DNA of 64,000 bases from Acidimicrobiales bacterium (GTDB lineage: Bacteria; Actinomycetota; Acidimicrobiia; Acidimicrobiales; Aldehydirespiratoraceae): contig OZ220692.1 in the NCBI GenBank assembly GCA_965116485.1, positions 2,459,152 to 2,523,151 on the forward strand. Reading direction: 5' to 3'. The notes under the pieces were generated by a model. The model did no database searches. It was not told the origin of the DNA and worked only from the letters and a program-made list of their open reading frames with translations. This document shows, piece by piece, positions 237-61,048 of this stretch. The first letter of the stretch is position 1. Each line of letters opens with the position of its first letter. A program made the translations under genes and the position numbers.

Positions 237-1888
237 GTGCCAAACTGCAACCAAATGTCGCTGATTCACCACCACGAAGCTGGAGGGACGCTTACAGACG
301 TCCGGTCAGAGCAGGAACTGGCGGGGTTGGCGTGGGCTATCGCTCAGACCGGGTCCATCGCAAAGCTAACGGACCCCGAAGCCGCGGTCGTCGAGACGGC
401 GCCAGATATGCCACACCATGATCTTGACGGCATCATCGCCTCAATTCGCGACGGGCACGACCCGTTGGGGGACGCACTCGTGCGACTCAGGTCACCGAGC
501 CAACGGCGCCCGATGGGAGCCGTATACACACCACCGGAGATCGTGGACGCGATGGTGCGATGGATCGCTGCGAAGGAGCAGTCTGCTCGAGTGGTAGACC
601 CGGGTGCTGGATCGGGACGGTTCGTCATGGAGGCTGGGAGGCGACTGCCGGATGCGTCGCTCGTGGCAGTCGAACTCGATCCTTTGGCAGCATTGCTCTG
701 CCGCGCCAATCTCACCGCAACAGGATTCGACGACCGCGCCCGGCTAATCGTCGATGACTACCGTAACGTGACGCTCGACAAGTGCTCCGGGACGACGGCG
801 TTCGTAGGCAATCCGCCATATGTGCGTCACCATCAGATCGATTCAGCCTGGAAAAACTGGCTTACCTCCACTGCCTCAGCAAACGGACTGCCCGTGAGTG
901 CCCTTGCAGGACTGCATATTCATTTTTGGCCACTCTGTTGTTGGCCAATCCAGGAGACATCGGAGCGTTCATCACGTCGGCAGAGTGGATGGACGTCAAC
1001 TATGGGCGACTGCTGCGTGAGATGTTGACCAACGGACTGGGTGGCGAATCGATCCAGGTTGTTGCCCCAGAGGCTATGCCCTTCGAGAACACGGCCGTCA
1101 CCGCGGCGGTCACCTGCTTTCGTGTTGGTTCTACAGCTTCCTCGCTCAAACTGCGCCGAGTCGACAAGGTTGAGGAGCTTGCAGATCTAACGGTCGGGCG
1201 CAAGGTGGGCAAGCAGCAGTTGAAACAGGAAAAGCGGTGGTCACAACTACTGACTCCGGTCCAACCTATGCCAGAGGGCTATATCGAACTGGGAGAACTC
1301 TGCCGTGTGCATCGGGGATCTGTCACCGGTGCCAATGCCATCTGGATCACTAGAGCCGACGATCCAGCCTTGCCTGAACGGACGTTGTTCCCATCAATCA
1401 CCAAGGCCCGGGAACTGTTCGACACTGCCGATGGTGTGCTGTTGAATCTATGCGATCTTCGTGCCGTTATCGACCTGCCTGAGGACTTGAACGAGCTAGG
1501 TGACGAAGACCGAGATCTTGTCGAGCGCTTCTTGCGGCTTGCAAGAACCAACGGCGCCCACTCATCGTATGTCGCGCGTCATCGCAATCCTTGGTGGTCG
1601 GTCGGTCTCCGATCGCCCGCGCCGATCTTGGCCACCTACATGGCGCGACGACCGCCGGCGTTTGTTCGCAACCCCCTCGGTGCCCGATGCGTCAACGTCG
1701 CCCACGGGATCTACCCGAGGCAACCCTTGACCGACGCAGTCTTGGATGCCCTAACCACATCACTGAGAACCAGCGTTTCGATCACTCAAGGGCGCACATA
1801 CGCGGGTGGGTTGACGAAGTTCGAACCTTCGGAGATGGAACGCATTCCGGTCCCAAGTCTTGCCCTTCTCGAAGAGATAGCGGCGTGA
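237..1888 (+). pseudogene. N6-adenine DNA methyltransferase (Eco57I/TaqI-like), split by a frameshift
   Basis: ORF 237-1028 carries the SAM motif VVDPGAGSGRF and catalytic GNPPYV. Its natural continuation (LATLLLANPGDIGAFITSAEW... plus the C-terminal part) is in the frame of ORF 782-1888. The frames meet at the T5 run 923-927 (cat ttt tgg versus ttt ttg gcc). Confidence 0.75.
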
Positions 1889-2039: not shown

Positions 2040-3287
2040 TCAGCTGGTGCAGCCGAAGCCGTCTCCGTCTCGGTCCAGGCGGTAGGGATCAACACCGATC
2101 GTGCGCACCTGAACGGGTTTCTGGGCACTCGACAGGTCGCCGCAGTTCAGAGCGTCGCCCGGCAAGTTGGGCAAACACGGGATGTAGGCGGGATGGCACA
2201 GATCTTCCGCTGCCGCGAGCGTCGTTGTAGTCGTCGGCGCTGGAACTGTCGTCGCCGCGGCCAGGACCGGCGATGCCTGAACAGGCGCACTGCCCAGTTC
2301 CGAGTCCCCGCATTGCGAAAGCACAGAACGCAAAGCCTGCAACTCGGCTGTGTCGACCGAAAGCTCCCAACGGGTCTTCACCGCGATCCACGCCTCGGCA
2401 TACCAGCACCGCGCCGATACCAGCGGCGGCAGCCAATCAGCGGGGTCGTCGGCGCCCTTCTGACGATTCGACGAACTCGACACGGCCACCAACGAGTGCT
2501 CATAACCCAGGTCGTTCGCGTAACGACGACGAGTGTCGCTGTCCCAGTTGTAGGCGCCCGAATCCCAAGCCTCGGCCAACGGCACAAGATGATCCACATC
2601 GAAGCCGGAGCCGGAGCCCGACTCGGTGATGCCGTCATAGACGCTGTACCACTCACCGCCCGACAGCGAACAGGAAGATCCGACACGCGGAGCTATCACA
2701 GCTTCGGCGATCAGCACCTCACGGCGCGCGTCGCAACGGTCGCCGTCTGCGTCGACCCAATGGTCGAAGAGATCGCGGTCATAACCCGAACGCCGCTCGG
2801 GTTGGACTTCCAGCGCTTCGAGTCGACCCTGCAACACCGCGACCGCCGATTCCGGACGGTCAGCGACCTGAAGGTTCTCAGACACCGAACTGTCGCTGTC
2901 GCCTTCTGTTTCCTCGACCGAACCCAGCGATGGGTCGACAACCTCGGGCAGCTCAGCGACAACCGTCGTGGTCGTCACCGGATCAACCGGTGGGTCGACA
3001 ACCTCGGGCAGCTCAGCGACAACCGTCGTGGTCGTCACCGGACCAACCGGCTGGGGTTCCGCCGGAGTCGCAGACTCAACCGGTTCCAGATCACCGCCGT
3101 CTTGCTCAAGCTGGTCGTCACCGCTCGAAGGGGGCTGACTCGTCTCGACAGCCTGAGTGCTTTGTGTCGCTACAGCGCTTGAGGTCGTTGGTGAAGTCGT
3201 TTCTTCGGCTGCCGCGCAACCGGTGGCAAGCAGAACGGCAAGGGCTGCCAGGACGTGGCGGGGATCCACGGCATCAAGTATACTCAA
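2040..3287 (-). CDS. Secreted/lipoprotein nuclease-like protein: DUF1524-type His-Me finger domain plus C-terminal Excalibur Ca-binding domain
   Basis: N-terminal signal with lipobox LLATGC. FDVDHLVPLAEAW and SSSSNRQKGADDPADWLPP match the DUF1524/GmrSD C-terminal motif as I recall it. C-terminal NCGDL...DRDGDGFGC is Excalibur-like (DxDxDGxxC). Confidence 0.65.
   Translation of the reverse strand: MSILDAVDPRHVLAALAVLLATGCAAAEETTSPTTSSAVATQSTQAVETSQPPSSGDDQLEQDGGDLEPVESATPAEPQPVGPVTTTTVVAELPEVVDPPVDPVTTTTVVAELPEVVDPSLGSVEETEGDSDSSVSENLQVADRPESAVAVLQGRLEALEVQPERRSGYDRDLFDHWVDADGDRCDARREVLIAEAVIAPRVGSSCSLSGGEWYSVYDGITESGSGSGFDVDHLVPLAEAWDSGAYNWDSDTRRRYANDLGYEHSLVAVSSSSNRQKGADDPADWLPPLVSARCWYAEAWIAVKTRWELSVDTAELQALRSVLSQCGDSELGSAPVQASPVLAAATTVPAPTTTTTLAAAEDLCHPAYIPCLPNLPGDALNCGDLSSAQKPVQVRTIGVDPYRLDRDGDGFGCTS
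2931..3050. repeat. 2 x 60-bp tandem direct repeat inside the nuclease-like lipoprotein gene
   Basis: tgggtcgacaacctcgggcagctcagcgacaaccgtcgtggtcgtcaccgga(t/c)caaccgg occurs twice back to back (2931-2990, 2991-3050) with one mismatch. It encodes VTTTTVVAELPEVVDP twice. Confidence 0.9.
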
Positions 3288-7320: not shown

Positions 7321-7884
7321 CGGGTTCTTACCCGATTCTGGAGGATCCCGCCCAACCGACCGCGGACACCCCACAACACCCAACCAGCCACCACAACCAC
7401 ACCGCCACGGTGGATTCAGGCTTAGAGGCCCCGCGAATAGGCAGAGGATTTCCGAGTGCGAACGGCTTGATTTGCGGGGCCGTGGCCCGAGCGGCCCGGT
7501 GAGCGAAGCGAGCCAAGAGCGGGAAACAACGGGCTGCAACTCGAGGGCTTGCCTATTTGCGCGCGCTCTTATTCTCGGTCTGGTGTCGTAGGCGTGTGTT
7601 ATTGTCGTCTTTGAGATCGACTCAACCGTCGAGGAGTTTGCATGTGGCCAAGACAATCGAAACTTAGGTAGGCGAGCCAACTGGACATAGGTTGCTTGCC
7701 TCAGATGTCGCTCCTGCAGCGTGACGCAGGGCGCCGAGACTCAGTGAGCAACCCTCACAGAAAACCCGAGTACGCGTCGGGGGTCGAAGCGCAGTACAGA
7801 GCCGGATGGTGCATGGAGAGCGTGAGACAGACACGCGAAGGTCTCTCCGAAGAGTCAGCCAGCCGGAAGATATAGCCACAAATC

Positions 7885-7956
7885 GCGGTTGTAGTTCAAC
7901 TGGTAGAACGTCTGCTTGCCTAGCAGAGGGTTCGGGTTCAAGTCCCGGCAACCGCT
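7885..7956 (+). tRNA. tRNA-Gly(GCC)
   Basis: 72-nt hand-folded cloverleaf: acceptor gcggttg/caaccgc, D gttc/gaac, anticodon loop ttGCCta (unusual U37), T-arm tcggg-ttcaagt-cccgg, discriminator U. No encoded CCA. Confidence 0.85.
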
Positions 7957-8210
7957 CAACGGTCTCGACTTCAGACAGGATGAGGCTTGGATCGAGCCGA
8001 CGGTGAGGTTTCTGACGGACCACGGCATCTATCACAAGGTCGAAGTTCAGCAGGTCGCCCAGTGGGAAGCCGAGCACGCCGAGATACATCGGATCAAAGA
8101 CGAACAGGAGACCGAGGAACGCTCTAGGCGCGGCCATCCGGTCCCACACCGCGTGAAGCTCGGCAACGGACGTGAGGGCATCCGCTGGTCGTGACCGCTC
8201 GCAGCACCTA

Positions 8211-8282
8211 TCGGGGATGGTGTAATTGGCAACACATCGGGTTTTGGTCCCGAAATTGAAGGTTCAAGTCCTTCTCTCCGAT
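8211..8282 (+). tRNA. tRNA-Gln(TTG)
   Basis: 72 nt: acceptor tcgggga/tctccga (U1-A72 as in bacterial tRNA-Gln), loop ttTTGgt, T-arm gaagg-ttcaagt-ccttc. CCA encoded at 8283-8285. Confidence 0.9.
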
Positions 8283-8287
8283 CCAAT

Positions 8288-8360
8288 CCGCCTGTAGCTC
8301 AACGGATAGAGCACCTGACTTCGGATCAGGTGGTTGGAGGTTCGACTCCTCTCAGGCGGT
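8288..8360 (+). tRNA. tRNA-Arg(TCG)
   Basis: 73 nt: acceptor ccgcctg/caggcgg, D gctc/gagc, loop ctTCGga, T-arm ggagg-ttcgact-cctct. No CCA. Confidence 0.85.
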
Positions 8361-8371
8361 CGAAGAAACCC

Positions 8372-8458
8372 GGAAGCGTGGCAGAGTCTGGCTTATTGCG
8401 TCGGTCTTGAAAACCGGAGGGCTTCACGGTCCCGTGGGTTCAAATCCCACCGCTTCCT
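8372..8458 (+). tRNA. tRNA-Ser(TGA)
   Basis: 87-nt class II tRNA: acceptor ggaagcg/cgcttcc, loop ctTGAaa, long variable arm gggcttcacggtccc, T-arm gtggg-ttcaaat-cccac. Confidence 0.9.
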
Positions 8459-8629
8459 CGCTGAGTTGTGTGGCGATCTCAAATCGTCGTCTGCGTGCAG
8501 CGCTGCGCCGTTCGACGATGGGCTTGGCTCCCAATAGGAGTCTGTCCGAGGAGGACCACACACCGTCTTTGGGATTGATCCCCCGAAGGCGGCTCCCGAG
8601 TATCGACGGCTCGGGGGCTCAAAGTCTCT

Positions 8630-8702
8630 GGGGATGTAGTTCAATTGGAAGAACGCCGGTCTCCAAAACCGGAAGTTGCAGGTTCGAGTCCTGTCAGCCC
8701 CG
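8630..8702 (+). tRNA. tRNA-Trp(CCA)
   Basis: 73 nt: acceptor ggggatg/cagcccc (A5xG68 mismatch), loop ctCCAaa, T-arm gcagg-ttcgagt-cctgt. CCA encoded. Confidence 0.85.
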
Positions 8703-8706
8703 CCAA

Positions 8707-8779
8707 ACGCATGTAGCTCAGTGGATAGAGCATCTGGTTGCGGACCAGAAGGCCGGAGGTTCGACTCCTCTCATGCGTG
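8707..8779 (+). tRNA. tRNA-Arg(GCG)
   Basis: 73 nt: perfect acceptor acgcatg/catgcgt, loop ttGCGga, T-arm ggagg-ttcgact-cctct. No CCA. The anticodon has G34 rather than the usual bacterial A34. Confidence 0.85.
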
Positions 8780-8967
8780 CCGTTCCTGTGTTGACTGTGG
8801 CGTGCAGATCGACACAGACCCCCTAATAGGCTCTCAGGGGGTTGGCCTTGCGTGGAATCGAGACACCGCGCAAGGCGTGACTCGATGGCGTGTCCGCCAA
8901 CACGTCAACGAAGACCGAAGTCTCCGGTCAGAAGCCGCTCGGTATGAGGCCGTCGAGCGGCTCACTA

Positions 8968-9040
8968 TGGCGCGTAGCTCAGTTGGAAGAGCGTCTCGTT
9001 TACACCGAGAGGGCCGCGGGTTCGACCCCTGCCGCGCCAA
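8968..9040 (+). tRNA. tRNA-Val(TAC)
   Basis: 73 nt: acceptor tggcgcg/cgcgcca, loop ttTACac, T-arm gcggg-ttcgacc-cctgc. CCA encoded at 9041-9043. Confidence 0.9.
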
Positions 9041-9200
9041 CCAAAGCGACCACAGTCGCTTCACATTGCTAGCCGCTGGTGTCGGCCAGCGTGGTTCCCG
9101 GACCGCCCGACAGGGGGCACCGACCGAAGACAGAGTTCGATTCTCGGGTCCGGCCTATCCGACTTCTCCTCGCTTCTTCCGTACGGGGAGAAGTCGGCTC

Positions 9201-9273
9201 GGGGGTGTAGCTCAGTAGGTAGAGCGTCTGCTTTGCAAGCAGAAAGTCACGGGTTCGATTCCCGTCTCCTCCA
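9201..9273 (+). tRNA. tRNA-Ala(TGC)
   Basis: 73 nt: acceptor gggggtg/ctcctcc with the G3-U70 Ala identity pair and a U6xU67 mismatch, loop ttTGCaa, T-arm acggg-ttcgatt-cccgt. CCA encoded. Confidence 0.9.
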
Positions 9274-9280
9274 CCATCTC

Positions 9281-9352
9281 GCCCGAGTAGCTCAATTGGC
9301 AGAGCACCTGTCTTGTAAACAGGCGGTAGGAGTTCGACTCTCCTCTTGGGCT
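9281..9352 (+). tRNA. tRNA-Thr(TGT)
   Basis: 72 nt: acceptor gcccgag/cttgggc, loop ctTGTaa, T-arm aggag-ttcgact-ctcct. CCA encoded. Confidence 0.9.
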
Positions 9353-9566
9353 CCAAACCTGAAGGTCCGATTTGTCCGCTTCGGGTCTGATTTGCCGTGA
9401 CTAGTCCTGATCGTAAGATCAGCGGCAGACGCGGAGCACCCCAAGAAGGCTGGGTCCGGGGATCAAGCGGGGACGATGCTCTCGTTTGCGCTCGCCGATC
9501 CCCCGCCCGAGACTAAGCCGGAAGCGAGGTTGGATTCCTCGGGTTTCTGCGGGCCGCTTCGTGCTA

Positions 9567-9640
9567 CGGGTTGTGGCGCAGGCTGGCAGCGCGCCTCGTT
9601 CGGGACGACGAGGTCGACGGTTCAAATCCGTCCAACTCGA
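9567..9640 (+). tRNA. tRNA-Pro(CGG)
   Basis: 74 nt: acceptor cgggttg/caactcg (C1-G72 typical of tRNA-Pro), loop ttCGGga, one CxC mismatch in the anticodon stem, variable aggtc, T-arm gacgg-ttcaaat-ccgtc. No CCA. Confidence 0.8.
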
Positions 9641-9646
9641 CGTCTA

Positions 9647-9720
<74 letters not shown>

Positions 9721-9726
9721 CCACTA

Positions 9727-9799
9727 TCCGGGGTAGCTCAATTGGCAGAGCGGTCGGCTGTTAACCGACATGTTGGAGGTTCGAGTCCTCCCCTCGGAG
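9727..9799 (+). tRNA. tRNA-Asn(GTT)
   Basis: 73 nt: acceptor tccgggg/cctcgga (U1-A72), loop ctGTTaa, T-arm ggagg-ttcgagt-cctcc. No CCA. Confidence 0.9.
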
Positions 9800-9824
9800 C
9801 TTGCACGAAGCGAGTTCAGTTCAT

Positions 9825-9897
9825 GCGCCTCTAGCTCATCTGGAAGAGCGTCGGACTCTTAATCCGAAGGCACTGGGTTCGAGTCCCAGGAGGCGTG
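9825..9897 (+). tRNA. tRNA-Lys(CTT)
   Basis: 73 nt: acceptor gcgcctc/gaggcgt, loop ctCTTaa, T-arm ctggg-ttcgagt-cccag. CCA encoded. Confidence 0.9.
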
Positions 9898-9901
9898 CCA
9901 A

Positions 9902-9973
9902 GCCCCGGCGGTCTACCGGATGGACACCTGGTTTTCACCCAGGAGGCAGCGGGTTCGACTCCCGTCCGGGGTA
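9902..9973 (+). tRNA. tRNA-Glu(TTC)
   Basis: 72 nt: acceptor gccccgg/ccggggt, 3-bp D stem gtc/gac as in tRNA-Glu, loop ttTTCac, T-arm gcggg-ttcgact-cccgt. No CCA. Confidence 0.85.
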
Positions 9974-10002
9974 CGGATGGCTCGTGTGAGCCGACAATTT
10001 TT

Positions 10003-10077
10003 GGCTTCATAGCTCAGTCTGGTTAGAGCGTTGCCCTGTCAAGGCAGAGGTCGCCGGTTCAAATCCGGTTGGAGCCG
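10003..10077 (+). tRNA. tRNA-Asp(GTC)
   Basis: 75 nt: acceptor ggcttca/tggagcc, D gctc/gagc, loop ctGTCaa, T-arm gccgg-ttcaaat-ccggt, G73. CCA encoded. Confidence 0.9.
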
Positions 10078-10089
10078 CCAAAACACCGA

Positions 10090-10163
10090 CGAGGTGTAGC
10101 TCAATTTGGAAGAGCGCCTGGTTCTGACCCAGAAGGTCGCGAGTTCGATCCTCGCCGCCCCTG
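10090..10163 (+). tRNA. tRNA-like gene with Gln(CTG) anticodon; weak acceptor stem, possible pseudogene
   Basis: 74 nt: good D arm (gctc-aatttggaa-gagc) and T-arm gcgag-ttcgatc-ctcgc, loop ttCTGac. Acceptor cgaggtg/cgcccct has two mismatches (1-72, 3-70), plus a C27xA43 mismatch. The 5' half is nearly identical to tRNA-Pro(TGG) at 9647. Confidence 0.5.
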
Positions 10164-10247
10164 CCAACTCGTACCACTGCACCGCGTCCGCACTAGCAAC
10201 CCGCACATTCGTCAGCAATTTCATAGTTAGTGTGGTAGATTGCAGAC

Positions 10248-11078
10248 ATGGTGAACTCCATTGAGCCACGGGAACTGCGCGACATGATGGTCGAGCGCGG
10301 CATCGAGTTCGCTAGCGCTTCGGAGATCGCTGGATGGATCGGCTGCAACCTTCAGGAGGTTCCGCATCGACTGCGCGGAGCGCGACAAGCACGAGAGATG
10401 GTGTGCGTGACGCGTCACGGCTGGGTGCCGACTATTGGTGGACGTGTTGCTCCGAGCACGTTTATGGAACCGATGATGAAACATCTCGGGCACCGGTACT
10501 ACATGGCTGGGTTGTCTGCTGCTGCCCGCCACGGGGCCTCGCACCAAGCGCTGATGGTGGACCACTACGCCACCGACGGGCACCTCTCCAGTCGGAGCAT
10601 CCGAGGGTCGAAGCGTGTTGTGATGTTCCACCGACCGCATATTACAGAGTTCCCGACTGTCGAAATACAAATCAGGAACAGAGCGGGACATGCGTGCCCC
10701 CTCAGAATCTCAACACCGGAAGTATCGTTGTTCGACTTGTTCGCGTTGCACCCGTTCTACGGACAGGATTCCAACCTGAACGTTGCCTGCGAGCTTCTCG
10801 ACCCAGGCCCGCACTTGGAGCCGGTGCTTGATCCCGAAGCGTTGGCTTCTGTGGCAATGCTCTACAGTGTGCCGACCAGACAACGCGTCGGCTTTCTGCT
10901 AGAGGAGATGGCAGAACATGTTGGACGCGACTTCGACCTTGACCCGTTGGAATCGACGTTGGGTGCCGCGGCTAGGACCGTCGAGTATGAGTACGACCCA
11001 GATCGCAGCGAACCACCTATCAAGCATCACGACCGATGGCGAGTGCGCCAGTGGTACGAGATGTGGCCTGACCTGTGA
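10248..11078 (+). CDS. AbiEi-like antitoxin/transcriptional regulator (type IV toxin-antitoxin)
   Basis: 276-aa ORF. Its size, N-terminal wHTH-like region and GTGA overlap with a downstream AbiEii-like fragment fit AbiEi. The family assignment is recollection-level and was not searched. Confidence 0.5.
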   Translation: MVNSIEPRELRDMMVERGIEFASASEIAGWIGCNLQEVPHRLRGARQAREMVCVTRHGWVPTIGGRVAPSTFMEPMMKHLGHRYYMAGLSAAARHGASHQALMVDHYATDGHLSSRSIRGSKRVVMFHRPHITEFPTVEIQIRNRAGHACPLRISTPEVSLFDLFALHPFYGQDSNLNVACELLDPGPHLEPVLDPEALASVAMLYSVPTRQRVGFLLEEMAEHVGRDFDLDPLESTLGAAARTVEYEYDPDRSEPPIKHHDRWRVRQWYEMWPDL

Positions 11079-11308
11079 TCCATCTAAGCGCAATCCAACA
11101 GTGGGAAGAGAATCACCCTTGGCAAGATGATTCCCAAATCGAGCAGGACTTACTTCTTGAAGCAGTGTTGCACCGTGCCGCGAGTACGGGCAGGTTCGGA
11201 GAACTGGTCTTCATAGGCGGGCACGGCGCTACCCCATGTCGACGACGGGTCGCTCCGGGAAAGACATGCCCGATTCACCGTCAACGGCCACAAGGCGCTC
11301 CTTCGTAG
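11075..11308 (+). pseudogene. AbiEii/DUF1814-type nucleotidyltransferase toxin, N-terminal fragment only
   Basis: 77-aa ORF. IEQDLLLEAVLHRAAS...LVFIGG resembles the N-terminus of AbiEii toxins (normally about 250-300 aa). The reading frame decays after FIGG and the gene abuts tRNA-Thr at 11334. Confidence 0.5.
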
Positions 11309-11333
11309 AAGCAAGCCGCCGGGTCTTCCTCTA

Positions 11334-11406
11334 GCCGTTGTAGCTCAGTTGGCAGAGCGCCGTCATGGTAAGACGGAGGTCGCCGGTTCGATCCCGGCCT
11401 TCGGCT
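11334..11406 (+). tRNA. tRNA-Thr(GGT), acceptor stem with two UxU mismatches
   Basis: 73 nt: acceptor gccgttg/cttcggc (5-68 and 6-67 are UxU), loop atGGTaa (A32), T-arm gccgg-ttcgatc-ccggc. No CCA. Confidence 0.7.
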
Positions 11407-11426
11407 CAACGAGCATCGAATATCTA

Positions 11427-11502
11427 GCCCCGTTGGTCTAGTTTGGCTTAGGACACCGCCCTTTCAAGGCGAAGATCACGGGTTCAAATCCCGTACGGGG
11501 TA
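11427..11502 (+). tRNA. tRNA-Glu(TTC)
   Basis: 76 nt: acceptor gccccgt/acggggt, 3-bp D stem gtc/gac with a 13-nt loop, loop ctTTCaa, T-arm acggg-ttcaaat-cccgt, A73. No CCA. Confidence 0.8.
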
Positions 11503-11562
11503 CTGTGCGCCGTAGTGCATCTGTTTGGACAGCGGACGTGTACGGTTTTTGTGGCGCATCAC

Positions 11563-11638
11563 GCTGCGTTGGTCTAGTCAGGTTCAGGACGCCGCCCTGT
11601 CAAGGCGGAGGACACGGGTTCAAATCCCGTACGTGGCG
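11563..11638 (+). tRNA. tRNA-Asp(GTC) built on a Glu-type body
   Basis: 76 nt: acceptor gctgcgt/acgtggc, the same 3-bp D stem gtc/gac with 13-nt loop and the identical T-arm acggg-ttcaaat-cccgt as the Glu gene at 11427, loop ctGTCaa, G73. Confidence 0.8.
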
Positions 11639-11646
11639 CTCATTGC

Positions 11647-11720
11647 AGGCGCGTAGCTCAGTTGGTTAGAGCGCTCCCCTGATAAGGGAGAGGCCGATGG
11701 TTCAACTCCATCCGTGCCTA
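11647..11720 (+). tRNA. tRNA-Ile(GAT)
   Basis: 74 nt: acceptor aggcgcg/cgtgcct, loop ctGATaa, T-arm gatgg-ttcaact-ccatc. No CCA. Confidence 0.9.
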
Positions 11721-11725
11721 CAAGA

Positions 11726-11815
11726 GGAACGGTGGCGGAGTCCGGTTGATCGCACCGCCCTGCTAAGGCGGAGACGCACGACGTGTGTCCGTGGGTTCAA
11801 ATCCCACCCGTTCCG
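11726..11815 (+). tRNA. tRNA-Ser(GCT)
   Basis: 90-nt class II tRNA: acceptor ggaacgg/ccgttcc, loop ctGCTaa, long variable arm, T-arm gtggg-ttcaaat-cccac. CCA encoded. Confidence 0.9.
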
Positions 11816-11822
11816 CCAACAT

Positions 11823-11896
11823 GTCGGCGTGCCCGAGCGGACTAAGGGAGCTGCCTGCAAAGCAGCGATTCACGGGTTCAAATCCCGTCGCCGACT
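11823..11896 (+). tRNA. tRNA-Cys(GCA)
   Basis: 74 nt: acceptor gtcggcg/cgccgac, anticodon arm gctgc-ctGCAaa-gcagc, T-arm acggg-ttcaaat-cccgt, U73 (Cys identity). CCA encoded. Confidence 0.85.
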
Positions 11897-11900
11897 CCAG

Positions 11901-11975
11901 GGTTCGGTAGCTCAGATTTGGAAGAGCGCCTGTCTGAAAAGCAGGAGGCCGGCGGTTCGATTCCTGCTCGAACCA
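11901..11975 (+). tRNA. tRNA-Phe(GAA) with a defective T stem
   Basis: 75 nt: acceptor ggttcgg/tcgaacc, loop ctGAAaa. The T-arm ggcgg-ttcgatt-cctgc has two mismatched pairs (50-64, 51-63). No CCA. Confidence 0.65.
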
Positions 11976-11984
11976 CATCAACAC

Positions 11985-12071
11985 GTCAGTATGGCGCGAG
12001 CGGCGAAGGCACTCGGCTGTAAACCGAGCGAGGCGAAAGCCTCTTCCCCGGTTCAAGTCCTGGTGCTGCCA
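11985..12071 (+). tRNA. tRNA-Tyr(GTA), class II, several imperfect pairs
   Basis: 87 nt: perfect anticodon arm ctcgg-ctGTAaa-ccgag and variable arm gaggc-gaaa-gcctc. Acceptor gtcagta/tgctgcc (one mismatch), weak 3-bp D stem, T-arm cccgg-ttcaagt-cctgg (one mismatch). Confidence 0.6.
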
Positions 12072-12084
12072 CACAGTCTCATAA

Positions 12085-12170
12085 GCGGGCGTGGCGAAGC
12101 TGGTAGACGCGCCGGGCTTAGGACCCGGTGGGGTGGAAGCCCCGTGTGAGTTCGACTCTCACCGCCCGCA
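12085..12170 (+). tRNA. tRNA-Leu(TAG)
   Basis: 86-nt class II tRNA: acceptor gcgggcg/cgcccgc, loop ctTAGga, T-arm gtgag-ttcgact-ctcac, A73. Confidence 0.9.
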
Positions 12171-12175
12171 CTCAC

Positions 12176-12249
12176 GGTGATATAGCTCAGTTGGTTAGAG
12201 CGGCGCGCTCATAACGCGTAGGCCCCTGGTTCGATTCCAGGTATCACCA
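12176..12249 (+). tRNA. tRNA with CAT anticodon (elongator Met or lysidine-type Ile2; not an initiator)
   Basis: 74 nt: acceptor ggtgata/tatcacc with G1-C72, loop ctCATaa, anticodon stem gcgcg/cgcgt (no GGG/CCC initiator signature), T-arm cctgg-ttcgatt-ccagg. Confidence 0.85.
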
Positions 12250-12259
12250 CCGAACACTC

Positions 12260-12345
12260 GCGGGAGTGGTGAAGCTGGTAGACACGCCAGATTCAAAATC
12301 TGGTGGGCTGAGAGGCCCGTGTGGGTTCGACCCCCACCTCCCGCA
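12260..12345 (+). tRNA. tRNA-Leu(CAA)
   Basis: 86-nt class II tRNA: acceptor gcgggag/ctcccgc, loop ttCAAaa, T-arm gtggg-ttcgacc-cccac. CCA encoded. Confidence 0.9.
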
Positions 12346-12356
12346 CCATCAGAATT

Positions 12357-12429
12357 GCCTCTGTAGCTCAATTGGATGAGCGTCCGGTTTCTACCCGGAG
12401 GGCTGCGGGTTCGAGTCCTGCCAGGGGCG
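12357..12429 (+). tRNA. tRNA-Arg(TCT)
   Basis: 73 nt: acceptor gcctctg/caggggc, loop ttTCTac, T-arm gcggg-ttcgagt-cctgc. No CCA. Confidence 0.9.
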
Positions 12430-12621
12430 CTGTTAGCTGACGATCTCCGCGTTGTTCACGGTGTGACCGACGCGTACGCGGCTTTGGTCAACGCGGCGAC
12501 AGCTTCGTAACGGTCGTCATGCCGAGCGCACGGCTCGATCCAAACCTGTTTCTGATCCACAACGTCGATGGTAACCACCCTGCCAGACGCCATTACGACG
12601 ATCTACAGTTCCCACCATCTT

Positions 12622-12694
12622 GCGTCTCTAGCTCAACTGGTAGAGCAGCGGACTTTTAATCCGACGGTTCTGGGTTCGAGTCCCAGGAGACGTT
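12622..12694 (+). tRNA. tRNA-Lys(TTT)
   Basis: 73 nt: acceptor gcgtctc/gagacgt, loop ctTTTaa, T-arm ctggg-ttcgagt-cccag. No CCA. Confidence 0.85.
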
Positions 12695-12736
12695 CTGCAA
12701 ACCGACACACACCAGAACACAGAGAGGACAACCGCG

Positions 12737-13279
12737 ATGTCGAAAGCGCTTCTGCTCAACGCCTCATACGAGCCGTTGCACGTCGTTTCAACGCGCCGCG
12801 CCCTGGGTCTGATCCTCGCCGGGAAAGCCGACCTCGTGGAAGCCGGTGACGGTGAGTGGCGTTCAGCGTCGCACACGTTCCCGGTTCCGTTGGTGCTGCG
12901 TCTGCGCTACATGGTGCGGATTCCGTTCACGGCGCGTGTCCCGTTGAACCGCAAGACGTTGAAGGTCCGTGACGACGGGAAGTGCCAGGTCGCATCGTGC
13001 CGCGCTAGTGGAACGACCATAGATCACGTCGTGCCGCGTTCGCGTGGTGGTGACCACTCTTGGACGAACGTCGTGTTGATGTGCTCAGACCACAACCTCC
13101 AGAAAGCCGACCGGCTGCTCAGCGAACTCGGCTGGCGGCTCAAAGCAGTCCCGCGCGCGCCGAGACAGCATCAACTCGTGCTCGCAACATCGAACACGAA
13201 ACCGGACCCAGCTTGGCAGCCGTACCTCGCCGGGGGATCACGGTTCTCTGGCTGCGTTGAACCAGGTTCGCTATGCTGA
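12737..13279 (+). CDS. HNH endonuclease
   Basis: 180-aa ORF with DHVVPRSRGGDHSWTNVVLMCSDHNLQK (H-N-H motif). Starts 43 nt after tRNA-Lys(TTT). Confidence 0.8.
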   Translation: MSKALLLNASYEPLHVVSTRRALGLILAGKADLVEAGDGEWRSASHTFPVPLVLRLRYMVRIPFTARVPLNRKTLKVRDDGKCQVASCRASGTTIDHVVPRSRGGDHSWTNVVLMCSDHNLQKADRLLSELGWRLKAVPRAPRQHQLVLATSNTKPDPAWQPYLAGGSRFSGCVEPGSLC

Positions 13280-13282
13280 GCT

Positions 13283-13489
13283 ATGAGCCGACGGGATGAT
13301 GTGCTGGTGAAGCACCGTGAAGCGATAGTCGCTGCTGCGAAACGAGAGAGGGCGCTCTCTTTCGCGTTCGTGGGTTCCACTGCCCGTGGTGAAGATATCC
13401 CCGACAGCGACCTGGACTTCCTAGTCGAGTTCAAGAAGGGCATCACCTTGTGCGGGATCGGTCGACTTGAAGCTGACCTTCAAGACATG
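13283..13489 (+). pseudogene. MNT-type nucleotidyltransferase (HEPN/MNT antitoxin-like), 3'-truncated
   Basis: FVGSTARGEDIPDSDLDFLVEF is the GSxxRG...SDxDLLV minimal-nucleotidyltransferase motif. Similarity ends near LEADLQD (about aa 68), and the rest of ORF 13283-13735 runs into the antisense of a tRNA. No HEPN partner is present. Confidence 0.55.
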
Positions 13490-13696
13490 CGTCGGATGGG
13501 ATGGGAACGGCGGCAAGGGTCAACAGCCGTCGAAAGCCGCTCGGCCCGGAGGGAAACCAGGCCAGCGCATACGCTCCCAAGACCAGCACAAACAAACCCG
13601 GACAGAGCCCCCACGGGCACCATCCGATATAAAGCCCCTAATTTGCCCTGTTCAGAAAGGGTGCTCGGCACCGGCCACGCCCGGCAACCAGCACAG

Positions 13697-13770
13697 CACC
13701 TCCGACAGGACTCGAACCTGCAACCTGCGAGGTAGAAGCTCGCTGCTCTATCCAGTTGAGCTACGGAGGC
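13697..13770 (-). tRNA. tRNA-Arg(TCT)
   Basis: 74 nt on the minus strand: acceptor gcctccg/cggaggt, loop ctTCTac, T-arm gcagg-ttcgagt-cctgt. Confidence 0.85.
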
Positions 13771-13854
13771 ACAATAATCGTACGCCGAGTGCCGCAACTC
13801 GGTACACTCAATGCCTGACTCCGCTCCGGGTCAACGCTCGGAACGGGGCAACAT

Positions 13855-13929
13855 GGTGGGCGTAGCTCAGTTGGTTAGAGCGCCTGGTTGTGGTCCAGGA
13901 GGTCGGGGGTTCGAGTCCCCTCGTTCACC
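13855..13929 (+). tRNA. tRNA-His(GTG) with encoded G-1
   Basis: 75 nt including G-1 (13855) opposite C73: acceptor gtgggcg/cgttcac, loop ttGTGgt, T-arm ggggg-ttcgagt-cccct. Confidence 0.9.
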
Positions 13930-13955
13930 CGTAGAATCGCCTTCGGTCGATACGC

Positions 13956-14028
13956 GCACCTCTAGCTCAATTGGCAGAGCAACGGACTCTTAATCCGCAG
14001 GTTCTGGGTTCGAGTCCCAGGGGGTGTA
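13956..14028 (+). tRNA. tRNA-Lys(CTT)
   Basis: 73 nt: acceptor gcacctc/ggggtgt, loop ctCTTaa, T-arm ctggg-ttcgagt-cccag. CCA encoded at 14029-14031. Confidence 0.85.
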
Positions 14029-14102
14029 CCACAGGCTCCAGATCTTGCACTGCCTCAGCGGAGCCACAACAGCGAATCGAGCAGTTTCACGAAGCTGGCT
14101 CC

Positions 14103-14534
14103 CTAGTGCGGATTCAGAACCTCGACGCGCCGCGGGTCAGCAGAGATCGCTGCCATAGCCTGGTCGAAAGTGGCAACGCAACCGTCGTAGCGCTCGGCCA
14201 AGGACAACAGGTGGAGATCGGTGACCTGTCGATGACCGGTGACCCCCGCTCGGTGCCAAGCCTGCGAGCGTGCCGGAACGATGTCGTCCACCCAGAATCG
14301 GTGCCCGGTGAATTCGGTGAGTGATCGCAGCACCGCCGCTGCCTCCCGCGGTGGGCGAGCATCAGCGAGTACACGCGAGTTCGAGGAAACACGGATAAAG
14401 CCCAACTGCACCACGGCCGACGTAGCCCATGATTCAACCCTTCGGGAGAGAAACCAGTCGACGGCTGCGCCGTGGTGAAGATGAGTAGGCCATGCCAAGG
14501 CAACGAGTACGTTGACGTCTAGAAGTGGTGTCAC
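14103..14534 (-). CDS. vapC: PIN-domain toxin VapC
   Basis: 143 aa: LLDVNVLVAL N-terminal acidic motif, later VTDLHLLSLA and ATFD acidic positions typical of PIN. 4-bp overlap with the upstream antitoxin gene. Confidence 0.8.
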   Translation of the reverse strand: MTPLLDVNVLVALAWPTHLHHGAAVDWFLSRRVESWATSAVVQLGFIRVSSNSRVLADARPPREAAAVLRSLTEFTGHRFWVDDIVPARSQAWHRAGVTGHRQVTDLHLLSLAERYDGCVATFDQAMAAISADPRRVEVLNPH

Positions 14535-14752
14535 CAGTCTTCGCTCGCTGAACGGACCATCTCAGGGGTGATTGGTTGACTGGCTGGTTCGACGGTGAAT
14601 CCCGGAACAGCACGCCTCGTGTCCACAGGCCGGTCTTGCAGTCCTTTGCGAGCCAAGTCCGAAACTGCGGTACCGACCGATACACCACGTTCGCGAGCGA
14701 GCGAGCGCGCCACCGCAAGAACATCATCAGCCAAATTCAGTGTTGTGCGCAT
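14531..14752 (-). CDS. vapB: VapB-type antitoxin
   Basis: About 73 aa: MRTTLNLADDVLAVARSLARERGVSVGTAVSDLARKGL is typical of VapB-like antitoxins. The ORF track starts at GTG 14755; ATG 14752 is the likelier start. Confidence 0.7.
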   Translation of the reverse strand: MRTTLNLADDVLAVARSLARERGVSVGTAVSDLARKGLQDRPVDTRRAVPGFTVEPASQPITPEMVRSASEDW

Positions 14753-14758
14753 CACAAC

Positions 14759-14787
14759 ATCATAGCATCATATTGCGGTTTTGACAC
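14759..14787 (-). promoter_or_regulatory. Candidate vapBC promoter giving a leaderless mRNA
   Basis: Minus strand reads gtgtca-N17-TATGAT-gttgtg-ATG. The -10 TATGAT (14759-14764) ends 6 nt before ATG 14752. A direct repeat atcata-gc-atcata overlaps the -10. Confidence 0.35.
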
Positions 14788-14813
14788 TACGGATTACCTT
14801 GCGGTGGGGAACC

Positions 14814-14925
14814 AACCCGCGGGCGATCGACAAAGTGACCGGGTCACCGGCGTGGATCGAGGCGAACAGCACCGCGACCATGGCGACCGCTGCTGCCAGC
14901 AAGTCCAGGAGCGGAGGAAACTCCG
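14814..14925 (-). pseudogene. 112-bp fragment homologous to the membrane-protein gene at 32276-33130
   Basis: 14814-14925 aligns without gaps to 32661-32772 (about 15 mismatches by eye). It translates to PPLLDLLAAAVAMVAVLFASIHAGDPVTLSIARGLV versus PPSLDLAAAAVAMVAVLFASINAGDPVALSIARGLV. Confidence 0.8.
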
Positions 14926-14939
14926 ACGTCTGCGTCGAG

Positions 14940-15236
14940 ATCGTGCTCAACAACGTGCCCACCCTGGGTGAATCGCATCAGGCATGGCAGCTCAACGAGA
15001 TCAGCTCGCTGATCTGGCCGTCCCCGCTCGGAGCGGGCGTGATGGACCCGGACCTGTGGGCCCAGACGGTCGACGTCGCCACCAGCGAGGGCATTCTCGG
15101 CGCAGCTCCGGACGACGGCGCCGATCGCACCGACATCGCCGAAGAGGCGCTCGAGAACCTGCGCGATCAGGGCATCGACGTGGTCGGCTCCGATTTCGAA
15201 CGGATTGTCGTCGAGCTTCGCGAAGGCGGCGAGTAG
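14940..15236 (+). pseudogene. 3' fragment of a solute-binding-protein-like gene
   Basis: Only the tail ...NNVPTLGESHQAWQLNEISSLIWPSPLGAGVMDPDLWAQTVDV...VVGSDFERIVVELREGGE reads like a real protein. It resembles the C-terminus of NMT1/THI5-type ABC substrate-binding proteins, which is weak recollection-level similarity. No N-terminal part is present. Confidence 0.3.
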
Positions 15237-15644: not shown

Positions 15645-15719
15645 CGCCCGACTCTACCCGGCCACACAGCCGACCACATAAGCAACCGGGGCTCCGGCTA
15701 CGCCCGGCGACCAGCAACG

Positions 15720-15793
15720 CACCTCCGACAGGACTCGACCCTGCAACCCGCGAGGTAGAAGCTCGCTGCTCTGTCCAGTCGAGCTACGGTGGC
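15720..15793 (-). tRNA. tRNA-Arg(TCT) copy 2, probably degenerate
   Basis: Same frame as 13697-13770, but acceptor gccaccg/cggaggt has an A4xA69 mismatch and the T-loop reads gtcgagt (T54 replaced by G). Confidence 0.55.
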
Positions 15794-15877
15794 GGAATAA
15801 TCGTACGCCGAGTGCCGCAACTCGGCACCCCCAATGCCTGACTCCGCTCCGGGTCAACGCCCGGGACGGGGCAACAT

Positions 15878-15952
15878 GGTGGGCGTAGCTCAGTTGGTTA
15901 GAGCGCCTGGTTGTGGTCCAGGAGGTCGGGGCTTCGAATCCCCTCGTTCACC
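15878..15952 (+). tRNA. tRNA-His(GTG) copy 2, T-arm altered
   Basis: Identical acceptor, G-1 and anticodon arm to copy 1. The T-arm is ggggc-ttcgaat-cccct, which breaks the near-invariant G53-C61 pair. Confidence 0.65.
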
Positions 15953-15978
15953 CGTAGAATCGCCTTCGGTCGATTCGC

Positions 15979-16051
15979 GCACCTCTAGCTCAATTGGCAG
16001 AGCAACGGACTCTTAATCCGCAGGTTCTGGGTTCGAGACCCAGGGGGTGTA
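15979..16051 (+). tRNA. tRNA-Lys(CTT) copy 2
   Basis: Same cloverleaf as 13956-14028. T-loop is ttcgaga, and the 3' trailer is caa instead of cca. Confidence 0.75.
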
Positions 16052-16128
16052 CAACGCAAAACCCCTAGTCAGTACAAGTTCTGTGCCGACCTGGGGTTCT
16101 GTCGTCCAGGTACGGGACACGTCCGTGG

Positions 16129-60533: not shown

Positions 60534-61048
60534 CCGTTGTTCTTGATCCCACGTCCGAGTTGCGGCCTACGACACGTGAGCGTGTCGCTCGACCCGAGTC
60601 TCTCAACGGGCTGACAGTCGGGCTGCTCGACATCTCCAAACCCCGCGGAGACATTTTTCTCGACCGCGTGGAGGAGAGGCTGACCGGTCTCGGCGCCAAC
60701 GTGAAGCGCTTCAAGAAGCCGACGTTCACCAAGCCCGCGCCGGTCGATCTGCGCCATGAGATCGCTGTTTCCTGCGATGCGGTGATTGAAGCACTGGCCG
60801 ATTGAGGTTCCTGCACGACGTGCAGTGTGCACGACATCAACGATCTCGAACTCCGGGGCGTTCCGGGGGTGTTCGTTGCCACCGTCGAGTTCGCCGACGG
60901 AGCAGAGCAGCAGAGCAGGAGCCTCGGAGGCGATATTGCTCATGTCTTGACCGAGCACCCCATCCAGGACCGCACCGATTCAGAGATGGTCGCAATTGCC
61001 GACCGCGCGATCGACACACTGTTGAGCTCGCTCACCGGCCCCGGCTGA
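60530..61048 (+). CDS. Candidate UGSC-motif selenoprotein (in-frame TGA at 60803)
   Basis: ORFs 60530-60805 and 60827-61048 share one frame. Read-through gives ...VIEALAD-U-GSCTTCSVHDINDLELRGVPGVFVAT..., that is a U-G-S-C motif. Confidence 0.6.
60819..60833 (+). promoter_or_regulatory. Candidate SECIS hairpin
   Basis: cgtgca-GTG-tgcacg: 6-bp perfect stem. The loop G and U fall at +23/+24 from the U of TGA, the geometry known for E. coli fdhF. A competing hairpin ctgcac-gac-gtgcag lies at 60811-60825. Confidence 0.45.

What the first reader, a model, noticed from the sequence alone, without database searches (positions are those of the whole stretch)
10248..14787. Toxin-antitoxin and nuclease genes whose families are known to target tRNA are embedded inside the tRNA array
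Four modules lie between the tRNA blocks: AbiEi plus an AbiEii fragment (10248-11308), an HNH endonuclease (12737-13279), an MNT fragment (13283-13489) and VapBC (14103-14752). Established knowledge links these families to tRNA. DUF1814/AbiEii-type nucleotidyltransferase toxins such as the mycobacterial MenT proteins modify tRNA 3' ends. VapC PIN toxins cleave tRNA anticodon loops or the 23S sarcin-ricin loop. HEPN/MNT pairs are RNase-based systems. My inference is one of two possibilities. The modules could be addiction systems stabilising an acquired tRNA island. Or the array could supply a spare or insensitive tRNA pool that buffers tRNA-directed toxins and anticodon nucleases. I do not know of a described system coupling the two.
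Basis: partly seen in the sequence, partly recalled or inferred. Interest (0 to 1): 0.8.

Follow-up and report, generated by a model that had tools for sequence, protein, structure and literature searches.

The report
Decayed toxin-antitoxin cargo in tRNA array
A horizontally acquired block of 32 tRNA genes carries the HNH endonuclease gene already known to travel with such arrays, plus three toxin-antitoxin modules of which two have lost their toxin, so this looks like ordinary mobile-element cargo and not a new tRNA-toxin system.

Summary
All four modules are at the stated coordinates and belong to the stated families. The proposed functional coupling is poorly supported.

- **HNH gene.** It is a DNA nuclease of the family already published as the hallmark of long tRNA arrays. 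I re-found that link: 13 of 22 viral loci and 5 of 10 sampled plasmid or phage loci with a homologue hold tRNA arrays.
- **AbiE.** AbiEi is intact. AbiEii is an in-frame stump: residues 1-49 fused to the last ~27. The nucleotidyltransferase core is absent.
- **MNT.** It stops at residue 69 of 97, and no HEPN partner exists in the window. The closest related array keeps an intact MntA-HepT pair.
- **VapBC.** It is intact, but it sits at the array's edge on the opposite strand. It begins about 70 nt past the 3' end of a tRNA-Lys, where a 365-bp repeat ends.
- **Homologues elsewhere.** AbiE relatives (6 distinct contexts) and VapBC relatives (3 distinct contexts) lie in mobile-element, defence-island or ordinary chromosomal settings, none in an array. 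BLAST found no relatives of these modules in 32 HNH loci from plasmids, phages and viral contigs.
- **Prior literature.** tRNAs as a shield against tRNA-cutting toxins, and toxin-antitoxin genes near tRNA clusters, are both published.

Verdict: a new member of a known kind of array, carrying decaying selfish cargo. Interest is low to moderate.

The parts
7885..10166 (+). tRNA array, block 1: 16 tRNA genes on one strand
   Evidence: ARAGORN; Rfam tRNA matches of 49-75 bits
10248..11078 (+). abiEi: intact full-length antitoxin/regulator gene (276 aa), now without a working toxin partner
   Evidence: Pfam AbiEi_1 1.6e-10; PADLOC AbiEi 2e-25; same length as homologues at 58-75% identity
11075..11308 (+). 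abiEii remnant (77 aa): residues 1-49 fused in frame to about the last 27 residues. The nucleotidyltransferase core (about 245 residues) is deleted. The 4-nt overlap with abiEi is kept.
   Evidence: BLASTP against a 322-aa AbiEii; tblastn finds no other AbiEii piece in the window; PADLOC AbiEii hit on residues 1-49 only
11334..12695 (+). tRNA array, block 2: 13 tRNA genes ending with Arg(tct)-Lys(ttt)
   Evidence: collinear with the array of Acidimicrobiaceae MAG locus L006 at 74-85% DNA identity
12737..13279 (+). HNH endonuclease gene, 41 nt after tRNA-Lys(ttt) on the same strand. It is the array-linked hallmark gene. Its last ~13 codons come from the region upstream of the MNT gene.
   Evidence: Same position after Arg(tct)-Lys(ttt) in L006/L007. 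Family found in arrays of viruses and plasmids.
13283..13489 (+). MNT (MntA-type nucleotidyltransferase antitoxin) fragment: residues 1-69 of 97, with no HEPN partner. The mechanical ORF runs on to 13735 in unrelated sequence.
13667..14031 (.). Repeat copy 1: canonical tRNA-Arg(tct) on the minus strand, then tRNA-His and tRNA-Lys(ctt). The repeat ends at the 3' end of tRNA-Lys.
14103..14534 (-). vapC: intact PIN-domain toxin gene (143 aa)
   Evidence: NCBIfam TIGR00028 4.4e-28; every invariant column of a 19-sequence alignment is kept
14531..14755 (-). vapB: antitoxin gene (74 aa), 4-nt overlap with vapC. The only sigma-70-like site in the region lies just upstream (14787-14759).
   Evidence: 64% identity to the VapB partner in L098; promoter scan, not above chance
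14781..15236 (+). 5'-truncated native gene fragment with native-like GC3 (0.83). It marks the right border of the island.
   Evidence: no family hit. The resemblance to the C-terminus of a substrate-binding protein is from memory only.
15690..16052 (.). Repeat copy 2, 93% identical to copy 1. The same three tRNA genes are present, two with lesions at universally conserved positions (Arg: A14G, U54G and an acceptor-stem mismatch; His: G53C).
   Evidence: Rfam bits 49.0, 58.3 and 60.9 against 64.8, 64.5 and 64.4 for copy 1

Best explanation
Bases ~7400-14780 are a horizontally acquired long tRNA array of the type already described in Actinomycetota, cyanobacteria, their plasmids and phages (32 tRNA genes; three more form the duplicate trio at 15719-16052).

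Its one conserved protein gene is the HNH endonuclease. It lies 41 nt after a tRNA on the same strand, so it is probably co-transcribed with the tRNAs. It most likely acts on DNA as a homing-type nuclease that promotes spread and reshuffling of the array (inferred from the literature, not tested here).

The three toxin-antitoxin modules are selfish, variable cargo. They landed in a dispensable, recombination-prone stretch and are decaying:
- AbiEii lost its catalytic core through an in-frame deletion, which leaves AbiEi as an orphan.
- The MntA-HepT pair of the ancestral array was broken by a rearrangement. That event removed HepT, truncated MntA and moved the stub behind HNH.
- Only VapBC still works as a module. 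It sits about 70 nt downstream of the 3' end of tRNA-Lys, at the island border, and has its own orientation.

Shown: gene identities, the lesions, the variability among related arrays, and the contexts of homologues. Inferred: the role of HNH, and that toxin loss reflects decay and not design.
For: - HNH and arrays. The HNH is in the same position after Arg(tct)-Lys(ttt) in a related Acidimicrobiaceae array, at 83% aa identity. The family sits in or beside arrays in 13 of 22 viral loci and 5 of 10 sampled plasmid or phage loci. HNH is the commonest family among 132 ORFs inside 19 other arrays, with 16 hits. Published as the conserved array gene: PMC8421152, PMC5966550, PMC12803027.
- Toxins gone. 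AbiEii is reduced to residues 1-49 plus about 295-321. MNT stops at residue 69 of 97 and the window has no HEPN.
- Cargo varies. L006/L007 carry an intact MntA-HepT pair (HepT-like 4.7e-20) plus PP2C, but no AbiE or VapBC. L009 has 18 tRNAs and no plausible protein-coding ORF between them by my GC3 screen.
- Homologues elsewhere. AbiEi homologues in 6 distinct contexts (10 loci) all lie outside arrays, and all but one (L092) keep an AbiEii gene downstream (full-length in 3 contexts; shorter calls of 210 and 280 aa in 2). The contexts hold TnpB, type IV coupling protein, FtsK, VapE, rve integrase and McrBC genes. VapC homologues in 3 distinct contexts have no tRNA within 10 kb.
- BLAST finds none of these modules in 32 HNH loci from plasmids, phages and viral contigs.
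- Island signature: GC3 0.53-0.72 against 0.78-0.86, and a truncated native gene at the border.
- Ongoing rearrangement: the MNT stub is transposed relative to L006 and fused to the HNH 3' end. Array-length variants exist among assemblies.
- A frameshifted methyltransferase lies about 6 kb to the left.
Against: - Two arrays of this Acidimicrobiia lineage have between them hosted three different RNA-directed toxin-antitoxin families. This may be more than chance, and I could not compute a background rate.
- AbiEi has stayed full length after loss of its toxin, which could reflect selection.
- No toxin-antitoxin module was found among 14 small ORFs of the 48 kb of native DNA in the window, so the modules are locally concentrated in the array.
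- The Pfam survey of other arrays listed only 25 of 67 families, so weak PIN or AbiE hits could have been missed.
Confidence: 0.68

Rival explanations
1. Addiction. The intact VapBC, and formerly AbiE and MntA-HepT, stabilise the acquired tRNA island by killing or arresting cells that lose it.
For: VapBC is intact. It keeps all family-invariant residues and a conserved VapB partner. It lies within the low-GC3 island next to the border. Post-segregational stabilisation is the textbook role of such modules on mobile DNA (established knowledge).
Against: Two of the three modules are dead, yet the island persists. The array is chromosomal, on a 3.5-Mb contig, where loss by segregation does not apply. 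The related arrays L009 and those on plasmids and viruses carry no such modules. This reading largely overlaps the cargo explanation and does not compete with it.
Confidence: 0.15
2. Buffering. The array supplies spare or insensitive tRNAs that protect the cell, or the element, from tRNA-directed toxins such as VapC, AbiEii-type nucleotidyltransferases or HEPN RNases. The modules and the array would then form one functional unit.
For: The general idea is published for phages and array units (PMC10264068, PMC12803027). In Anabaena, VapC genes are induced and array tRNAs are cleaved under translational stress (PMC8421152). Three RNA-directed module families occur in two related arrays.
Against: The toxins that would need buffering are deleted here. 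The duplicated tRNAs visible in the window (Lys-ctt x3, Arg-tct x3, His x2, Asp x2) have the same anticodon loops, apart from position 32 in one Arg copy; the two Glu-ttc copies differ at positions 32 and 38. VapBC is on the opposite strand with its own promoter-like site. The modules are not conserved across arrays.
Confidence: 0.08
3. Anti-toxin island. Selection keeps orphan antitoxins such as AbiEi next to the tRNAs, to disarm related toxins encoded elsewhere in the genome or on competing elements.
For: AbiEi is intact and 99.6% identical in a second assembly, while its toxin is gutted. A second orphan AbiEi occurs in related locus L092.
Against: The MNT antitoxin is itself truncated. One intact orphan is what neutral decay after toxin loss would produce. 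No second AbiEii is visible in the window.
Confidence: 0.05

Closest known systems
Long tRNA arrays (L-arrays, or tRNA array units) with a linked HNH endonuclease gene: Anabaena trn operon with all8564 (PMC8421152); Mycobacterium arrays (PMC5966550, PMC12803027)
   Same: Dozens of same-strand tRNA genes covering all 20 amino acids. Patchy, horizontally transferred distribution. An HNH gene of the same family lies adjacent. Frequent insertions, duplications and deletions.
   Different: The host is an Acidimicrobiia-like chromosome; the nearest relatives come from Acidimicrobiaceae MAGs and sponge metagenomes. The cargo includes AbiE, MNT and VapBC modules, which were not reported as array genes in those papers.
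Phage tRNAs as a counter-defence against tRNA-cleaving enzymes (PMC10264068; Azam et al. 2024, cited in PMC12803027)
   Different: There, the toxin belongs to the host and the tRNAs to the invader. Here, the modules sit in the same island as the tRNAs and are mostly dead. No anticodon-loop divergence could be shown.
Phage T4 SegB homing endonuclease in the T4 tRNA gene region (as cited in PMC8421152)
   Same: A DNA endonuclease gene embedded among tRNA genes that promotes inheritance of the neighbouring tRNA region.
   Different: SegB belongs to a different nuclease family (GIY-YIG, from my own knowledge). Activity of the HNH found here is untested.
AbiE / MenAT, MntA-HepT and VapBC toxin-antitoxin systems
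   Same: Gene order, 4-nt overlaps and domain families all match.
   Different: The AbiEii catalytic core is deleted. MntA is truncated and HepT is absent. The target of this VapC subfamily is unknown.

Membership tests
Long tRNA array (L-array / tRNA array unit) | Many (20 or more) tRNA genes at high density on one strand | tested here: met
   32 tRNA genes in 6.1 kb (7885-14031), 31 of them on the + strand
Long tRNA array (L-array / tRNA array unit) | Linked HNH endonuclease gene | tested here: met
   HNH at 12737-13279. Homologues lie in arrays of a related MAG, of plasmids and of viruses.
Long tRNA array (L-array / tRNA array unit) | Signs of horizontal acquisition | tested here: met
   GC3 0.53-0.72 against 0.78-0.86 for native genes; truncated native gene at the border; patchy presence among HNH loci of Actinomycetota
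Long tRNA array (L-array / tRNA array unit) | tRNAs redundant with a housekeeping set elsewhere in the genome | not testable with these tools
   Only 64 kb of the genome is visible. The single visible duplicate (the trio at 15719-16052) is redundant and decaying.
AbiE (AbiEi/AbiEii, type IV toxin-antitoxin) | AbiEi antitoxin with the AbiEi C-terminal domain, directly upstream of the toxin gene and overlapping it | tested here: met
   Pfam 1.6e-10, PADLOC 2e-25; 4-nt overlap at 11075-11078
AbiE (AbiEi/AbiEii, type IV toxin-antitoxin) | AbiEii nucleotidyltransferase domain (PF08843) present | tested here: not met
   No Pfam hit even at E<=10. Only residues 1-49 and about 295-321 of a 322-aa homologue remain.
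MntA-HepT (MNT/HEPN, type VII toxin-antitoxin) | Full-length MNT nucleotidyltransferase | tested here: not met
   Homology covers residues 1-69 of 97 and stops at 13489
MntA-HepT (MNT/HEPN, type VII toxin-antitoxin) | HEPN (HepT) RNase partner downstream | tested here: not met
   The best tblastn hit of the L006 HepT anywhere in the window has E=1.8, i.e. none. The partner is intact in L006.
VapBC (type II toxin-antitoxin) | PIN-domain toxin with the family's conserved residues | tested here: met
   TIGR00028 4.4e-28, above the 73.6-bit cut-off. All 45 invariant columns are kept, including D6, D106 and D124.
VapBC (type II toxin-antitoxin) | Small antitoxin gene upstream, overlapping the toxin gene | tested here: met
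   74-aa ORF with a 4-nt overlap, 64% identical to the partner of a VapC homologue
VapBC (type II toxin-antitoxin) | Toxin cleaves tRNA or 23S rRNA | not testable with these tools
   No relative with a solved structure at E<=0.01. The target can only be inferred from the family.
HNH (His-Me finger) endonuclease | HNH motif with its Cys/His metal ligands | tested here: met
   D96, H97, N111, C116, H119 and N120, plus C83 and C88, are kept. 27 invariant columns in 36 sequences; matches the HNH domains of IscB and Cas9.

The most novel reading that the evidence does not exclude
In this Acidimicrobiia lineage, tRNA arrays may repeatedly recruit RNA-directed toxin-antitoxin modules (MntA-HepT, AbiE, VapBC) and then shed the toxin halves. 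The tRNAs plus surviving antitoxins such as the orphan AbiEi would then act together as an island that neutralises tRNA-directed toxins encoded by the host or by competing elements.
Probability: 0.07. Interest if true: 0.65.

Novelty: new member of a known kind. Interest (0 to 1): 0.25.

Why it matters
If the modules were functionally tied to the array, the locus would be a natural test bed for the idea that extra tRNA genes exist to withstand tRNA-cutting toxins. The evidence points the other way. The conserved partner of the array is a DNA endonuclease, and the toxin genes are being lost. The locus is therefore mainly useful for two smaller points. It documents long tRNA arrays in Acidimicrobiia chromosomes. 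It also shows how such arrays collect and erode selfish cargo.

Tried and rejected
- **Near-identical DNA.** Megablast of the array against plasmid and phage collections found only single-tRNA matches.
- **HNH as mobile cargo specific to arrays.** Rejected in that simple form. About 70 of 80 chromosomal Actinomycetota loci with this HNH have no tRNA within 10 kb, and 5 Acidimicrobiales loci have one tRNA-Leu just upstream. The array link holds for the closest relatives, for plasmids and for viruses.
- **AbiEii cut off by insertion of the next tRNA block.** Rejected, because its C-terminal tail is still present. The lesion is an internal deletion.
- **Repeat at 13667/15690 as an integrase att duplication.** Not supported. 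Both copies are full length (365 bp, three whole tRNA genes). How the duplication arose is unresolved.
- **AbiEi in viral contigs.** No relative found.
- **Structure relatives.** None for VapC or for the truncated border gene.
- **Promoter and terminator scan.** Counts are not above chance.
- **ORF 7664-8149 (161 aa).** It overlaps tRNA-Gly and is unrelated to the 161-aa ORF in L006, so I treated it as spurious.
- **Organism.** Not named. Cluster look-up returned no names.

Full report
**What is there**

The window holds 35 tRNA genes between 7885 and 16052. Rfam's tRNA model confirms 34 of them (29-bit gathering threshold; the 34 matches score 49 bits or more; tRNA-Tyr 11985-12072 was not reported). 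All 20 amino acids are covered. Thirty-two genes form a dense array (7885-14031), 31 of them on the + strand. Three more (15719-16052) are a 93%-identical duplicate of the last three.

Protein genes embedded in the array have GC3 of 0.53-0.72. Genes on both sides have 0.78-0.86. The right border (about 14756-14781) cuts into a native gene whose 5' part is missing. The array with its cargo, about 7400-14780, is therefore an acquired island in a chromosome. An identical HNH protein is on record on a 3.5-Mb contig. An almost identical copy of the array is on a 7.9-kb contig of assembly GCA_044628435.1.

**The four modules**

*AbiE.*
- ORF 10248-11078 is an AbiEi: Pfam 1.6e-10, PADLOC 2e-25. It has the same length as its 38 database relatives.
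- The next ORF (11075-11308) overlaps it by 4 nt, as in relatives, where a 210-340-aa AbiEii follows.
- Here that ORF encodes only 77 residues. Residues 1-49 match the AbiEii N-terminus at 63% identity. The rest matches about the last 27 residues of a 322-aa AbiEii.
- No other AbiEii piece exists in the window, and Pfam's AbiEii domain is not detected.
- The toxin has lost its nucleotidyltransferase core by an in-frame internal deletion.

*HNH.* ORF 12737-13279 matches three Pfam HNH models. It keeps all 27 invariant columns of a 36-sequence alignment.

*MNT.*
- 13283-13489 encodes residues 1-69 of a 97-residue MNT. It is 88% identical to an intact copy in a related array, and DNA homology stops at 13489.
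- In that related array (L006/L007) the MNT is followed, with a 4-nt overlap, by an intact HepT toxin: Pfam HepT-like 4.7e-20.
- The window has no HEPN sequence anywhere.
- The MNT stub with 48 nt of its upstream DNA has been moved from its L006 position (before tRNA-Arg(tct)) to just behind HNH. There it supplies the last ~13 codons of the HNH ORF.

*VapBC.*
- 14103-14534 (-) is a VapC: TIGR00028 4.4e-28. It retains every invariant residue of 19 aligned homologues.
- 14531-14755 (-) is its VapB, 64% identical to the partner of a homologue.
- The pair is intact. It lies on the opposite strand to the tRNAs, and the region's only promoter-like site is just upstream of it (the count is not above chance).
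- It is not flanked by array tRNAs on both sides. It starts 71 nt after the 3' end of tRNA-Lys(ctt), where the 365-bp repeat ends.

**HNH is the known companion of such arrays**

- An HNH 83% identical to this one sits in the same place, directly after tRNA-Arg(tct)-tRNA-Lys(ttt), in a collinear array of an Acidimicrobiaceae MAG.
- A 60%-identical one follows an 18-tRNA array in a Candidatus Aldehydirespiratoraceae chromosome.
- Among viral contigs, 13 of 22 loci with a homologue hold at least 5 tRNA genes, and 12 hold at least 8.
- Of 10 sampled plasmid or phage hits, 5 lie in or beside arrays of 7-39 tRNAs. These include Mycolicibacterium pCBMA213_1 and a Nostoc plasmid.
- Among 132 ORFs inside 19 other arrays, HNH is by far the commonest family, with 16 hits.
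- About 70 of 80 chromosomal Actinomycetota loci with this HNH have no tRNA nearby. Five Acidimicrobiales loci have a single tRNA-Leu upstream. The family is therefore not restricted to arrays.
- The link is already published. HNH is conserved upstream of L-arrays and co-induced with the Anabaena trn operon, and was proposed to act as a homing endonuclease (PMC8421152). It is the most widespread coding sequence in Mycobacterium arrays (PMC5966550). It is conserved in all four M. avium array types (PMC12803027).
- HNH enzymes are DNA nucleases. Nothing links this one to tRNA cleavage.

**The toxin-antitoxin modules are variable cargo**

- AbiEi homologues at 49-74% identity were examined in 6 distinct genomic contexts (10 loci). 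None is in an array, and only one locus has tRNA genes at all (two, about 8 kb away).
- All but one context keep an AbiEii gene downstream (full-length in 3 contexts; shorter calls of 210 and 280 aa in 2). The exception is L092, where AbiEi is again an orphan.
- Their neighbours include TnpB, a type IV coupling protein, FtsK, VapE, an rve integrase and McrBC.
- VapC homologues at 62-64% identity in 3 distinct contexts have no tRNA within 10 kb.
- BLAST finds no relative of AbiEi, AbiEii, MntA, HepT, VapB or VapC in 32 HNH loci from plasmids, phages and viral contigs, 18 of which hold arrays.
- The Pfam survey of array ORFs lists HepT-like and NTP_transf_2 once each, both from L006. Only 25 of 67 families were listed, so weak hits may be hidden.
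- Within the lineage the cargo differs. L006/L007 have MntA-HepT and PP2C, L009 has no plausible protein-coding ORF between its tRNA genes (GC3 screen), and the window has AbiE, an MNT stub and VapBC.

**Signs of turnover**

- Other assemblies of the same array differ. One has four extra tRNA genes between Phe and Tyr. Another has Val in place of Phe. These are either real variants or assembly collapses.
- The duplicate tRNA trio next to native DNA is decaying. tRNA-Arg has A14G, U54G and an acceptor-stem mismatch, and tRNA-His has G53C. The array-side copies are canonical.
- About 6 kb to the left, a type II methyltransferase is split by a frameshift.
- Fourteen small ORFs in the 48 kb of native DNA gave no toxin-antitoxin hit.

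**Interpretation**

The best reading (confidence about 0.68) is a known kind of tRNA array with its usual HNH gene, plus selfish toxin-antitoxin cargo that is eroding.

- Addiction by VapBC (about 0.15) is compatible with this reading but adds little.
- A functional tRNA-buffering unit (about 0.08) is weakened in three ways. The toxins have been lost. The modules are not conserved across arrays. Most duplicated tRNAs in the window have identical anticodon loops (Lys-ctt x3, His x2, Asp x2); one of the three Arg-tct copies differs at position 32 and the two Glu-ttc copies at positions 32 and 38.
- An anti-toxin island built on orphan antitoxins (about 0.05) rests on a single intact orphan.

What keeps a small door open is that two related arrays have, between them, hosted three RNA-directed toxin families. 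I could not compute a background rate for that.

**Novelty**

- Extra tRNAs as a counter to VapC and PrrC: PMC10264068.
- Array units as putative anti-defence: PMC12803027.
- VapC induction, cleavage of array tRNAs and RtcB co-regulation: PMC8421152.
- Toxin-antitoxin genes near archaeal tRNA clusters, read as mobile-element markers: PMC6333295.

The locus is a new member of a known kind.

Noticed in passing
window 60530-61048 (+): A single UGSC-family gene is interrupted by an in-frame TGA at 60803-60805, followed by codons for Gly-Ser-Cys (..ALAD*GSCTTC..). The two ORF halves match profile positions 2-92 and 103-171 of Pfam UGSC. This is probably a selenocysteine codon, and hairpin-capable sequence lies just downstream.
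   Followed up: partly
window 237-1888 (+) and 2040-3287 (-): Two overlapping ORFs match consecutive parts (53-271 and 268-587 of 602) of one PADLOC type II methyltransferase model, so this is a frameshifted methyltransferase. Beside it is an ORF with a GmrSD C-terminal nuclease domain. Both have low GC3 (0.63-0.68).
   Followed up: partly
window 15690-16052 versus 13667-14031: A 365-bp repeat (93% identical) carries tRNA-Arg(tct), His and Lys(ctt) and ends at the 3' end of tRNA-Lys. The copy next to native genes has lesions at universally conserved tRNA positions, while the array-side copy is canonical. The acquired copies may be replacing the older ones.
   Followed up: partly
L001 4476-4846; L004 178-330; window 11901-12072: The same array differs between assemblies. 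L001 has four extra tRNA genes (Leu-taa, Leu-gag, Ser-gga, Val-gac) between Phe and Tyr. L004 has Val-gac where the window has Phe. These are either real deletion variants or assembly collapse.
   Followed up: no
window 11228-11305; L094 10870-10956; L006 9580-9680; L089 11710-11799 and 2514-2603: A Cys-rich C-terminal tail of about 25 residues (roughly C-x8-C-x2-H) is shared by AbiEii toxins, by the HepT toxin of the related array and by an unannotated 314-aa protein. It is the part of AbiEii that survived the deletion.
   Followed up: no
L025, L050, L054, L057, L071 (Acidimicrobiales loci): In five Acidimicrobiales genomes the HNH homologue has a single tRNA-Leu(taa) roughly 150-200 nt upstream and no array. 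About 70 other Actinomycetota loci have no tRNA at all within 10 kb. The array may have grown next to a resident HNH-tRNA pair.
   Followed up: partly
L092 9064-14683: A related contig clusters an MNT, an orphan AbiEi (about 70% identical to the window's), a PIN/VapBC-like pair, a second AbiEi/AbiEii pair and McrBC, with no tRNA gene. The same module families therefore also gather in ordinary defence islands.
   Followed up: partly
L107 3016-3540; L106 12673-13029: Arrays on actinobacterial plasmids carry an ORF with a HAD domain of the 'Swiss Army Knife' RNA-repair type. One array carries RF-1/PCRF, and a tmRNA gene sits in the Pseudarthrobacter array.
   Followed up: no
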